A DNA stretch of 21,415 nt. It comes from a virus. Taxonomy: Duplodnaviria > Heunggongvirae > Uroviricota > Caudoviricetes. The position numbers were made by a program, and so were the translations under genes. The stretch is taken from positions 1 through 21,415 of the IMG/VR virus record IMGVR_UViG_2617270975_000009; one strand, 5' to 3'. Under the pieces are notes generated by a model. It was not told the DNA's origin. It searched no databases and saw only the letters and a list, made by a program, of their open reading frames with translations. How positions within the stretch are numbered: the first letter of the stretch is position 1; each line of letters opens with the position of its first letter. This document shows, one piece after another, positions 7,284-8,471 of the stretch.

Positions 7284-7475
7284 ATGACACCACGAGAAAT
7301 CGAGCTGCTGACCATTGCCAAGCTGGAGCATGGCGGCCACCAGCTCAGCCCGGCAGAACTGCGGGAATTAAGGCGCCAGCTGGCAGAGGGCCCTGTAATA
7401 GCCAGGCGGTACCGCGAAATGATGACCAGCCCCGCATATCGCTGGAGCAAACCAGCGCCGCTCCGTGCGCGGTGA
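7284..7475 (+). CDS. Small conserved hypothetical protein (paralog 1 of 2)
   Basis: 63 aa from the ATG at 7284 (MTPREIELLTIAKLEHGGHQLSPAELRELRRQLAEG...SPAYRWSKPAP), preceded by GAGGGGA. It is a clear but diverged paralog of the ORF at 8286-8471. Confidence 0.5.
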   Translation: MTPREIELLTIAKLEHGGHQLSPAELRELRRQLAEGPVIARRYREMMTSPAYRWSKPAPLRAR

Positions 7476-7547
7476 GCAGCACCTAACCAGCACTAGACAA
7501 GCCCTGTGCTGGTGGATGTCCCTCATAATTAGCGGTTTTTAAACGGC

Positions 7548-7670
7548 GTGTTGGTTCACGGCCTCTTTTTGTTGGTTCAAAAATGGGGTGTGTTGGTTCA
7601 CTTTTTGCGAATAATTCTTTTAAAAACAATACTCTTTACAAATTGAACCAACTGAACCAACTGAACCAAC
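7548..7670 (+). repeat. Iteron cluster (ori-like)
   Basis: Three spaced TGTTGGTTCA repeats (7549, 7570, 7591), an AT-rich spacer, then three tandem inverted TGAACCAAC repeats (7644-7670). The reverse complement is homologous to the cluster at 19758-19873. Confidence 0.7.
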
Positions 7671-7706
7671 ACCTTTTTGCTTATCTATATAATCTGAGAG
7701 GCAGAA

Positions 7707-7988
7707 ATGATAAGGGACAGGAAAGCTGAAGAGCTGGAGTCAAAAGGGCTATACCGGAGAGCTGCCGCACGATGGATGGAAGTCATGCTGTTATGCACCG
7801 AGGACGATGATCGGGAATGGATAAAGCGCCGCCGTGAAACGTGTCTGGAGAACGTGAAGCGCCCGCCCGTGAAGGTTGAGGAATTTGGCGACCTGCATAA
7901 AGCTGTTACCGAAACGCAACACCGCATGGGGATAGCGCAACCGAACGGTAACGCCTTCCGGTTAAATGGCGGCAAGAGGCAAAGGTAG
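7707..7988 (+). CDS. PerC-family transcriptional regulator (Pch/PerC-like)
   Basis: 93 aa (MIRDRKAEELESKGLYRRAAARWMEVM...REWIKRRRETC...MGIAQPNG) carries the PerC-family N-terminal signature as I recall it. GAGAGG ribosome-binding site and a TATAAT box at 7686-7691. Confidence 0.55.
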   Translation: MIRDRKAEELESKGLYRRAAARWMEVMLLCTEDDDREWIKRRRETCLENVKRPPVKVEEFGDLHKAVTETQHRMGIAQPNGNAFRLNGGKRQR

Positions 7989-8285
7989 ACCACCAGAGGG
8001 AAATCATCCTCTGGCTGGCGGTTTCTGGTATTTCGGGACAAGTACGCGCGCGCGTAGCACCCAATCGGTGAGGAAATAGCGGCGACCTGAATGGTCAAAA
8101 TCACAACGCAGCTATCCCCGTAAGCAGCGCTTAACGGAATAGCAGTAACCTGAATCCAGTGGGGAGGGGGTAGTCAAATCTCTACAGCCCTGACTATCCG
8201 GGACTGCCCGCCCCATCGTTTTTTTATACCCGCGAAAAATGAAATTTAATCCGGGCGTGTTTCATCCTTCCAGAGGGTATGACGT

Positions 8286-8471
8286 ATGACACCACGCGAA
8301 ATAGCCTTATTGACCATCGCCAAACTTGAGCACGGAGGCCACCAGCTTACACAGGCAGATCAACGGGAGATAGAACGATCAGTTAATGCCGATATAGCCC
8401 GGCGCGACAGGTTCCGCGAAATGATGCGAGCACCTGCCTACCAGTGGAAGAAGCCAGCGCCGCGCAGGTAG
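8286..8471 (+). CDS. Small conserved hypothetical protein (paralog 2 of 2)
   Basis: 61 aa (MTPREIALLTIAKLEHGGHQLTQADQREIERS...APAYQWKKPAPRR), paralogous to 7284-7475; GAGGG ribosome-binding site. Confidence 0.5.
   Translation: MTPREIALLTIAKLEHGGHQLTQADQREIERSVNADIARRDRFREMMRAPAYQWKKPAPRR

What the first reader, a model, noticed from the sequence alone, without database searches (positions are those of the whole stretch)
7284..8471. Two diverged paralogous small genes (MTPREI...) one kilobase apart
The ORFs at 7284-7475 and 8286-8471 encode about 62 aa proteins sharing MTPREI(E/A)LLTIAKLEHGGHQL...(S/A)PAY(R/Q)W(S/K)KPAP but diverging in the middle. Duplication with divergence inside a mobile-element remnant suggests two degraded element copies or a specificity-diversifying small regulator.
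Basis: seen in the sequence. Interest (0 to 1): 0.4.

Follow-up and report, generated by a model that had tools for sequence, protein, structure and literature searches.

The report
Two small satellite genes, one family
The two 61-63 aa genes are real, conserved members of an uncharacterised protein family found only in phage-satellite islands of enterobacteria. They lie side by side because two gene cassettes from different satellite lineages were recombined, not because of a local duplication, and what the protein does is still unknown.

Summary
ORF1 (7284-7475) and ORF2 (8286-8471) align without gaps over 61 aa at 62% identity (E 8e-27). The DNA similarity stops at the ORF borders.

Both are protein-coding genes under purifying selection. 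Synonymous sites between them are saturated (pS 0.72). In codons 1-21, pN is 0.03 against pS 0.75.

They belong to a small family restricted to Enterobacterales, with no Pfam, NCBIfam, PDB or fold match. The predicted shape is a basic two-helix hairpin with a conserved PAYxWKKPxPRR tail.

The host element is not a remnant. It is a thrW-integrated PICI/P4-like satellite, caught here in joined-end (attP) form and carrying an IS1203-like insertion.

Each copy has closer orthologues in other genera than its neighbour: ORF1 is 83% identical to a Leclercia gene and ORF2 is 100% identical to a Kluyvera gene. E. coli islands exist with ORF1 only, ORF2 only, or both. The shared segment 7549-7790 (second iteron cluster plus the perC 5' end) is the likely crossover tract.

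Function is unknown. My best guess, at low confidence, is a small trans-acting adaptor that binds a protein partner. It is a moderately interesting, ordinary accessory gene family.

The parts
7284..7475 (+). ORF1, 63 aa, subfamily A of the 'MTPREI' small-protein family. Not annotated in the RefSeq records inspected.
   Evidence: It is 83% identical to Leclercia L003, with omega about 0.18-0.22 against its orthologues.
8286..8471 (+). ORF2, 61 aa, subfamily B of the same family. RefSeq annotates it as WP_000188903.1, hypothetical protein.
   Evidence: It is 100% identical to Kluyvera L008 and 87-89% identical to Enterobacter, Lonsdalea and Cedecea genes.
7253..7258 (+). TATAAT, a -10-like hexamer about 25 nt upstream of the ORF1 ATG. 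Inferred promoter with a weak -35.
   Evidence: Read. The block is conserved (as TACAAT) in L003 and L004 and in L022 (sequence printed). The consensus scan did not call it.
7082..7116 (+). Three direct GGTATCCA repeats (7082-7089, 7097-7104, 7109-7116) in the divergent AlpA1/ORF1 intergenic region.
   Evidence: Read. The repeats are conserved upstream of subfamily-A genes in L003 and L004 and in L022 (sequence printed). Their function is unknown. They could be an operator, and their resemblance to DnaA boxes is only my reading.
6847..7032 (-). AlpA1, an AlpA/HTH_17 family regulator transcribed divergently from ORF1.
   Evidence: Pfam PF05930, E 1.9e-13. The same arrangement occurs in L003 and L005.
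7549..7672 (.). Iteron cluster B: 3x (T)GTTGGTTCA, an AT-rich spacer, then 3x TGAACCAAC. This is a second ori-like site 73 nt after ORF1.
   Evidence: It uses the same 9-mer as cluster A, and the best match is in inverted orientation.
7707..7988 (+). perC-family gene. Its first ~84 nt are shared with ORF1-only islands and the whole gene is shared with ORF2-only islands.
   Evidence: Pfam PF06069, E 3.7e-30.
8162..8285 (+). Conserved upstream region of ORF2, with a promoter-like TTTATA-17-TTTAAT read at 8222-8250.
   Evidence: It is 81-91% identical to L008, L010 and L011 over 124-125 nt, and 89% identical to L012 over its last 80 nt. The promoter is my reading and was not called.
8592..9134 (+). 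PRiA4_ORF3-family gene. It travels with ORF2 as one cassette.
   Evidence: Pfam PF07929, E 1.1e-42. The ORF2-PRiA4 spacer is 95-100% identical in L008 and L010-L012.
9127..9486 (-). Hypothetical 119-aa gene, convergent with PRiA4, and the last gene before att.
9688..9704 (+). att core TCCTATTATCGGCACCA, identical to the 3' 17 nt of tRNA-Thr thrW. Here it is flanked by the island's right end and left end, which is an attP-type junction.
   Evidence: Integrated forms are seen in L002 and L015.
9870..11084 (+). Tyrosine integrase of the island.
   Evidence: RefSeq annotation.
16976..19735 (+). Primase (TOPRIM + DUF927) of the island.
   Evidence: RefSeq annotation. A Yersinia orthologue carries Zn_Ribbon_Prim, Toprim_3 and DUF927.
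19759..19873 (.). Iteron cluster A, the primase-proximal ori-like site, built from the same 9-mer as cluster B.

Best explanation
ORF1 and ORF2 are two functional genes of one uncharacterised small-protein family. I call it the MTPREI family; it corresponds weakly to PHROG 7271. The family is restricted to PICI/P4-like phage satellites of Enterobacterales. Its members always sit in the distal (late/accessory) zone near the attR end of the island.

The two copies belong to different subfamilies (A and B). They lie in two independently assorting cassettes on either side of a second ori-like iteron cluster and perC. The left cassette is [AlpA1(-)-GGTATCCA repeats-ORF1]. The right cassette is [ORF2-PRiA4_ORF3-hyp(-)].

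The two-copy state is what one homologous crossover within the shared tract 7549-7790 would produce, if it occurred between an ORF1-only island and an ORF2-only island. It is not an in-situ duplication.

Shown: coding status, family membership, location, and cassette structure. Inferred, about 0.8: the recombinational origin.

Inferred, about 0.25-0.3: the protein is a small trans-acting adaptor. In this reading the nearly invariant N-terminal helix (MTPREIELLTIAKLEHxGHQL) and the conserved basic-aromatic tail (PAYxWKKPxPRR) grip a conserved protein partner from the satellite, the helper phage or the host. The variable first half of helix 2 (residues 22-43) would tune specificity.
For: Coding status and selection: 62% identity, E 8e-27; pS 0.72, dN 0.33; codons 1-21 pN 0.03. 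Omega is 0.15-0.22 among subfamily-A orthologues.

Family: 72 homologues in Escherichia, Klebsiella, Citrobacter, Leclercia, Salmonella, Buttiauxella and Yersinia. Only 40 cluster representatives reach E<=1e-3 among 1.84 billion proteins. There is no match in 50,697 phage records.

Shape: AF2 predicts helices 3-16 and 23-47 plus a tail, mean pLDDT 78.6. pI is 10.8.

Host element: int, alpA, antA/ash with C4 and isrK RNAs, a TOPRIM-DUF927 primase, iterons, and captured P22-like gp14/7/20/16 genes. An attP junction is present.

Position near attR in relatives: L008, L010-L012, L014, L016, L017, L024 and L025.

Cassette origin: the flanks are unrelated. The ORF1-only island GF75 matches the window only over 6729-7790. 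ORF2-only islands L032-L038 match from 7549 onward. In 5,426 complete E. coli genomes, the ORF1 segment occurs in 153, the ORF2 segment in 310, the whole 6800-9600 stretch in 103, and the primase in 360.

Against an iteron-specific role: the identical protein P0058 sits in islands with different iterons, GAACCAAC in L024 and ACGGGTTA in L025.
Against: There is no experimental or homology-based evidence for any function. Pfam, NCBIfam, PADLOC, PDB sequence search, and Foldseek against PDB and BFVD all gave nothing significant.

A 63-aa two-helix model cannot separate a protein binder from a nucleic-acid binder. The strong positive charge (pI 10.8) fits DNA or RNA binding equally well.

The direction of the recombination history cannot be decided. 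The two-copy form could derive from the single-copy forms, or the reverse.

No conserved partner gene was found. The Zn-ribbon protein 'C7' precedes subfamily B in seven loci, but it is absent in the window and in subfamily-A contexts.
Confidence: 0.55

Rival explanations
1. Local tandem duplication of one gene followed by in-situ divergence, so that paralogues diversify specificity within a single element.
For: The two homologues are 1 kb apart on the same strand and diverge mainly in the middle.
Against: Similarity is confined to the ORFs and synonymous sites are saturated. ORF1 is 83% identical to a Leclercia gene and ORF2 is 100% identical to a Kluyvera gene, against 62% to each other. Islands carrying only one of the two exist, with breakpoints at 7549 and about 7790.
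Confidence: 0.04
2. The family is a replication accessory or copy-number factor for the second ori-like iteron cluster, functionally like P4 Cnr or a plasmid iteron regulator. Alternatively its transcription activates that origin.
For: Subfamily-A genes lie 9-77 nt upstream of an iteron cluster in the window, L003, L004, L020 and L022. Leclercia chromosomes keep only ORF plus iterons, with omega 0.22 and a dS similar to the neighbouring chromosomal gene. The protein is basic. A two-site ori/crr design is known in P4.
Against: The identical protein P0058 occurs with different iterons in L024 and L025. Subfamily A occurs with GAACCAAC iterons and with TGGGATAAC iterons. Subfamily-B genes in L008, L010, L011, L016 and L017 have no nearby cluster. 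There is no similarity to P4 proteins beyond general layout. That was only inspected by eye, not searched.
Confidence: 0.15
3. The family is a moron-type accessory gene expressed from the integrated island, for example a defence, exclusion or anti-defence factor. It would mark the edge of the variable cargo hotspot next to attR.
For: It appears to have its own promoter-like signals (read). Downstream cargo is variable and often defence-like: PRiA4_ORF3, Fic, SLFN/AlbA_2, and an Abi-like protein upstream in L003. The gene is retained intact in Leclercia remnants.
Against: There is no PADLOC match for it or for its window neighbours except AlpA. Its immediate neighbours are not constant, so it is not a fixed component of one system.
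Confidence: 0.15
4. The ORFs are not genes, and the similarity reflects a repeated cis-acting DNA or RNA element.
For: ORF1 is not annotated in any RefSeq record inspected; the one 'hypothetical protein' under the match that I examined (GF75) is an antisense call.
Against: In codons 1-21 there are about 11.5 synonymous and 1.5 non-synonymous differences. The frame stays open across at least seven genera. Rfam finds nothing in 6700-9900.
Confidence: 0.02

Closest known systems
Gram-negative PICIs and helper-embedded satellites: four-zone layout of integration, Bro, replication and late zones (Tommasini, Mageeney and Williams, bioRxiv 10.1101/2022.07.18.500453; Fillol-Salom et al., PMC6739421)
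   Same: The host island has int + alpA, a Bro/ash zone with C4/isrK immunity RNAs, a primase with iterons, and a late zone of captured helper late genes, here P22-like gp14/7/20/16. The two small genes sit at the far end of that late zone.
   Different: The parts of those papers I read do not describe the small family. This island has two ori-like iteron clusters and integrates at thrW.
Satellite phage P4 (NC_001609)
   Same: Both have a P4-type integrase, an AlpA/Vis regulator and a primase. Both have CI/C4-type immunity RNA. Both carry two separated clusters of the same iteron (ori and crr), with one cluster just after the primase gene.
   Different: The island has no sid/delta/psu genes. 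The second cluster lies in a different position relative to att. From the annotation, P4 has no homologue of the small protein, though I did not search for one by profile.
Rpp (RppA/B/C), small PICI proteins that redirect helper packaging (PMC6739421; PDB 6HLK, 6HN7)
   Same: Rpp proteins are small, PICI-specific and act by binding a helper protein. This is the kind of mechanism I consider most likely for the MTPREI family.
   Different: Rpp proteins are 144-153 aa wHTH dimers. A profile search of all PDB sequences with the MTPREI family finds nothing at E<=10 except noise.
PHROG 7271 (unknown function)
   Same: ORF2 matches it at E 2.1e-6 and ORF1 at E 0.011, mainly over the C-terminal half.
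   Different: The matches are weak and partial, and the PHROG has no functional annotation.
Ribbon-helix-helix (Arc/CopG) and LuxR/GerE helix 1 ('TPRExEVL')
   Same: There is a superficial resemblance in the N-terminal 'TPREIELL...G' helix and the helix-loop-helix length. This is my recollection only.
   Different: There is no room for the N-terminal beta-strand, because the ORF starts at MTPREI. No RHH or GerE Pfam hit appears in any of 50 members.

Membership tests
MTPREI small-protein family (uncharacterised; defined here by homologues) | Full-length similarity, including the N-terminal MTPREIELLTIAKLEHxGHQL helix and the C-terminal PAYxWKKPxPRR tail. | tested here: met
   Both ORFs align end to end with 48 other members. 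Columns M1, T2, E5, I6, L8, L9, I11, K13, L14, E15, M47 and R61 are invariant.
PHROG 7271 | A significant full-length HMM match. | tested here: inconclusive
   ORF2 scores E 2.1e-6 over residues 18-58. ORF1 scores E 0.011 over residues 33-61.
Recent tandem duplicate | Duplicated flanks and low synonymous divergence. | tested here: not met
   The flanks are unrelated and pS is 0.72.
PICI/P4-like phage satellite (the host element) | Integrase + AlpA + primase with adjacent iterons, and no full virion or lysis gene set. | tested here: met
   RefSeq annotations and Pfam, iterons. The only late genes are four ejection/head-completion genes.
PICI/P4-like phage satellite (the host element) | Site-specific excision or circularisation at a tRNA att site. 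| tested here: met
   Window bases 1-391 equal 21025-21415. The right and left ends are joined at the 17-nt thrW core, and integrated forms flank thrW. A head-to-tail tandem would give the same junction.
PICI/P4-like phage satellite (the host element) | Induction and packaging by a helper phage. | not testable with these tools
   This needs induction and transfer experiments.
Rpp packaging-redirection proteins | A wHTH N-terminal domain plus a coiled-coil dimerisation domain, about 144-153 aa. | tested here: not met
   The proteins here are 61-63 aa with two predicted helices. No PDB sequence hit to 6HLK or 6HN7 was found.
LuxR/GerE-type HTH | A four-helix domain with an HTH following the 'TPRE..VL' helix. 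| tested here: not met
   hhalign aligns 10 columns only, probability 18%. No GerE Pfam hit was found.
Known anti-phage defence proteins (PADLOC) | A match to a PADLOC model. | tested here: not met
   No match for ORF1, ORF2, PRiA4, the 119-aa gene, perC or the membrane protein.

The most novel reading that the evidence does not exclude
The MTPREI protein, together with the adjacent ori-like iteron cluster, forms a self-sufficient module. It would act on a conserved host, helper or satellite target through its invariant N-terminal helix and YxWKKPxPRR tail. Hosts would keep the module after the rest of the satellite is lost, for example as an exclusion or incompatibility device against incoming satellites that use the same iterons. 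The hint is the Leclercia 'ORF + iterons only' locus, which stays intact with omega about 0.2 and a dS like the neighbouring chromosomal gene.
Probability: 0.1. Interest if true: 0.6.

Novelty: new member of a known kind. Interest (0 to 1): 0.3.

Why it matters
If the family has a defined target, it would add one more small hijacking or regulatory protein to the toolkit of Gram-negative phage satellites. It would be a useful marker for the attR-proximal edge of their cargo hotspot. The cassette structure around the second iteron cluster also shows how these islands shuffle modules. As it stands, the finding corrects an annotation gap, because ORF1 is missing from RefSeq records. It also explains the pair as a recombination product, but it does not reveal a new mechanism.

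Tried and rejected
Domain and structure searches on both ORFs found nothing significant:
- Pfam, NCBIfam and PADLOC.
- Pfam at E<=10 on all 50 family members, which gave only scattered noise: TAC_6 in 3 of 50, MobC in 2 of 50.
- Profile search of PDB sequences: only SlyA at E about 1.
- Foldseek of the AF2 model against PDB and BFVD: best E 0.2-0.8.
- Rfam on 6700-9900: nothing.
- tblastn against phage genomes: no hit.

Specific hypotheses tested and rejected:
- LuxR/GerE or RHH relationship, rejected by hhalign and by the absence of a beta-strand.
- Rpp identity, rejected on size, fold and PDB search.
- A conserved partner gene. The Zn-ribbon 'C7' precedes subfamily B in L008, L009, L010, L013, L014, L024 and L025. 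It is absent from the window, and the 195-aa upstream gene in the Klebsiella plasmid L018 is unrelated. C7 itself has no Pfam or PHROG match.
- Covariation of the protein with iteron sequence or with the type of captured late genes. None was seen.
- A longer ORF1 starting at 7257 (72 aa). The extension is out of frame in L003.
- P0099, a 1,419-aa hit. This is a chance 'YQWKK' motif in Ig-like repeats.

Full report
**1. The observation**

ORF1 (7284-7475, 63 aa) and ORF2 (8286-8471, 61 aa) are present as described. BLASTP aligns them end to end without gaps: 38/61 identical, 45/61 positive, E 8e-27.

At DNA level the similarity begins at the ATG and ends at the stop, and the flanks are unrelated. 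Nei-Gojobori counting shows saturated synonymous sites (pS 0.72, dS >= 2.4) with dN 0.33. In codons 1-21 there are about 11.5 synonymous but only 1.5 non-synonymous differences (pN 0.03). Codons 22-43 are the variable part (pN 0.53), and codons 44-61 are intermediate.

So the conservation is imposed on the protein, not on the DNA. The resemblance is not low complexity. tblastn with four distant family members finds no third copy in the window.

**2. The family**

A word-indexed search found 72 homologues, all 'hypothetical'. They come from Escherichia, Klebsiella, Citrobacter, Leclercia, Superficieibacter, Salmonella, Buttiauxella and Yersinia.

An exhaustive profile search of 1.84 billion cluster representatives found only 40 at E<=1e-3. 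Distant members keep 'GHxL', 'D..E.R' and the tail 'R.RM..P.Y.WKKP.PRR', but they have a different first helix.

Two subfamilies are evident:
- Subfamily A, like ORF1: '...SPAELRELKRQLAEG...YRW...'.
- Subfamily B, like ORF2: '...TPADQREIERTVNADI...YQW...'.

No Pfam, NCBIfam or PADLOC family matches. PHROG 7271, of unknown function, matches weakly.

AlphaFold2 with a 50-sequence alignment gives helix 3-16, a GGHQL loop, helix 23-47 and an extended tail, with mean pLDDT 78.6. Foldseek against PDB and BFVD gives nothing significant, nor does a profile search of PDB sequences. The proteins are basic, with pI 10.8 and net charge about +4.7.

A suspected resemblance of 'TPREIELL' to helix 1 of LuxR/GerE domains did not survive hhalign: 10 columns aligned, probability 18%.

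**3. The host element**

The window is E. coli DNA. Its first 391 bases equal its last 391. Compared with integrated copies in strains 6409 and 'isolate 10', it is circularly permuted.

At 9688-9704 lies the 17-nt 3' end of tRNA-Thr thrW. It is flanked on the left by the island's right end and on the right by its left end. This is an attP junction, or a head-to-tail tandem joint.

An IS3-family element is inserted at 20140..423 of the circle, with a TAA target duplication. It matches the copies that RefSeq annotates as IS1203.

The integrated order is:
- thrW, int, DUF6387, alpA2, antA, DUF4222, ash (containing isrK and C4 RNAs), and small genes
- the TOPRIM/DUF927 primase and iteron cluster A
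- an Arc-like gene, P22-like gp14-gp7-gp20-gp16, and a membrane protein (-)
- AlpA1 (-), ORF1, iteron cluster B, perC, ORF2, PRiA4_ORF3, a 119-aa gene (-), and attR next to yagP'

This is the four-zone PICI/HES layout described by Tommasini et al., with captured helper late genes and P4-type RNA immunity. It is therefore not a 'remnant' in this window. A remnant that holds only 5463-9600 does exist in O111 strain 11128.

**4. Why there are two copies**

Each copy has closer relatives elsewhere than next door. ORF1 is 83% identical to a Leclercia gene (L003). ORF2 is 100% identical to a Kluyvera gene (L008) and 87-89% identical to genes in Enterobacter, Lonsdalea and Cedecea.

E. coli itself carries three variants of the same thrW island:
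- V1, as in the window, with both copies.
- V2, for example strain GF75 and IMG/VR loci L028 and L029, with AlpA1(-)-ORF1-iterons-perC-attR and no ORF2. V2 matches the window only over 6729-7790.
- V3, IMG/VR loci L032-L038, with an RHH gene (-) in place of AlpA1-ORF1, followed by iterons-perC-ORF2-PRiA4-119 aa. V3 matches the window from 7549 to 9698.

The tract common to all three is 7549-7790, which covers iteron cluster B and the first ~84 nt of perC. One crossover within it between a V2-like and a V3-like island yields the window's arrangement. This is an inference, and the direction of events is open.

In 5,426 complete E. coli genomes, the counts at >=80% coverage are: ORF1 segment 153, ORF2 segment 310, the whole 6800-9600 stretch 103, and the primase 360. 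The two genes therefore assort independently. The counts are compatible with most islands carrying this primase having at least one of them, but I could not cross-match genomes.

A Cedecea island (L014) also has two copies flanking its second iteron cluster, one of them very divergent.

**5. Context in relatives**

In other genera the gene is the last, or nearly the last, conserved gene before attR.
- Subfamily B is usually preceded by an unclassified Zn-ribbon protein, 'C7'. That gene is absent here: the L008 segment that carries it (8703-9876) corresponds to an unrelated 166-nt stretch, 7996-8161. Subfamily B is followed by variable cargo: PRiA4_ORF3 plus a 119-aa gene, Fic, or SLFN/AlbA_2.
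- In a 17-kb circular 'plasmid' of K. pneumoniae that looks like a capsid-forming PICI, a distant member follows terS-terL-tape measure and directly precedes attP-int.
- Subfamily A is preceded by a divergent AlpA-like gene and three GGTATCCA repeats. An iteron cluster follows within 9-77 nt in the window, L003, L004, L020 and L022.
- In several Leclercia genomes only 'repeats-ORF-iterons' remains next to an aldo-keto reductase gene. The ORF is still intact there, with omega 0.22 and dS 0.54, against 0.65 for the neighbouring chromosomal gene.

**6. Mechanism**

Nothing identifies a function. What the data constrain is the following.

(a) The protein does not covary with iteron sequence. The identical Yersinia protein sits in islands with GAACCAAC iterons and with ACGGGTTA iterons, and subfamily A occurs with two different iterons. 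That argues against an iteron-specific DNA binder.

(b) It does not covary with the type of captured late genes, whether ejection proteins, tape measure or none.

(c) It is absent from sequenced phages, so it is satellite equipment rather than a captured helper gene.

(d) The invariant parts are helix 1 with its loop and the aromatic-basic-proline tail. The variable part is the first half of helix 2.

My best guess, with probability about 0.25-0.3, is a small trans-acting adaptor that binds a conserved protein partner through helix 1 and the tail. This is the general mode of PICI proteins such as Rpp, to which it is not related.

The rivals are a replication or ori accessory role for the second iteron cluster (about 0.15), a moron or defence-edge gene (about 0.15), and nucleic-acid binding in general. 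None can be excluded without experiments.

**7. Verdict**

The genes are real, conserved and unannotated or uncharacterised. Novelty is modest: a new, uncharacterised accessory family inside a known kind of mobile element.

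Noticed in passing
window 1-391 = 21025-21415; att core 9688-9704: The window is a circular permutation of a thrW island with a 391-nt terminal redundancy and a joined-end (attP-type) junction. It probably represents an excised circle or a head-to-tail tandem.
   Followed up: yes
window 20140-21415 continuing into 1-423: An IS3-family element (matching the copies RefSeq annotates as IS1203), about 1.3 kb, is inserted between iteron cluster A and the Arc-like gene, with a TAA target duplication. It contains the ALIL pseudoknot (Rfam). Integrated copies in strains 6409 and isolate 10 lack it.
   Followed up: partly
window 786-5444 (also L005, L003; tape-measure genes in L010, L012, L013, L017): The satellite carries a P22-like gp14-gp7-gp20-gp16 head-completion and DNA-ejection cluster (PHROGs 651, 598, 770). 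Related satellites carry a tape-measure gene at the same place. Capture of helper late genes is known, but why ejection or tape-measure genes in particular are kept is unexplained.
   Followed up: partly
window 7549-7672 and 19759-19873; also L005, L009, L012, L014, L020: There are two complete ori-like clusters (3 iterons, an AT-rich spacer, 3 inverted iterons) with the same 9-mer, about 7.4 kb apart and inverted. The iteron sequence differs between islands but is always the same within one island. This recalls P4 ori/crr. In L010 and L011 the two halves are adjacent, as if cargo were inserted between them in other islands.
   Followed up: partly
window 7082-7116 (and L003 8678-8721, L004 9739-9795, L022 ~8690-8730): Three direct GGTATCCA repeats lie between AlpA1 and ORF1 and are conserved across genera. 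GTT(T)ACCA-like motifs follow them. They may be an operator for AlpA1 or DnaA-box-like sites.
   Followed up: no
window 14330-14407, 14470-14557, 11145-11212: Rfam finds isrK and C4 antisense RNA inside the 'ash' gene, and an int-alpA RNA after int. This is P4-type RNA immunity in a PICI-like island.
   Followed up: no
window 6959-7450 (-) and L020 11965-12102 (-): The RefSeq records inspected omit ORF1; two of them annotate an ORF on the opposite strand instead: WP_000234451.1 (6409, over AlpA1's 5' end and the AlpA1-ORF1 spacer) and WP_154670367.1 (GF75, antisense to ORF1). The substitution pattern supports the sense ORF.
   Followed up: partly
window 8025-8059, 6282-6314, 6000-6022: A short sequence of about 23-35 nt recurs three times in non-coding stretches of the island, at 88-96% identity. 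Its nature is unknown.
   Followed up: no
L021-L023 9001-9192 (Leclercia), L004: Stand-alone 'repeats-ORF-iterons' remnants sit in Leclercia chromosomes. The ORF is intact, with omega about 0.2 and a dS close to that of the adjacent aldo-keto reductase gene. This suggests long-term retention without the rest of the satellite.
   Followed up: partly
L008 9158-9769, L010 9157-9768, L014 9375-9944, L024/L025 8372-8941: A 189-203 aa protein with a CxxC...CxxC motif and no Pfam or PHROG match usually precedes subfamily-B genes. In the window it is missing: the L008 segment that carries it (8703-9876) corresponds to an unrelated 166-nt stretch, 7996-8161.
   Followed up: partly
L016 (NZ_CP146545.1, 17.8 kb) and L017 (CP018459.1, 17.0 kb): Two small circular records deposited as non-mobilizable plasmids look like excised satellites. 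One has alpA, a family member and a 119-aa-sized gene on the opposite strand in the same position. The other has capsid, terminase, tape-measure and integrase genes.
   Followed up: partly
window 9605-9626 / 9817-9838 and 9722-9742 / 9785-9805: Two pairs of 21-22-nt direct repeats flank the att core. They are candidate arm-type integrase sites.
   Followed up: no
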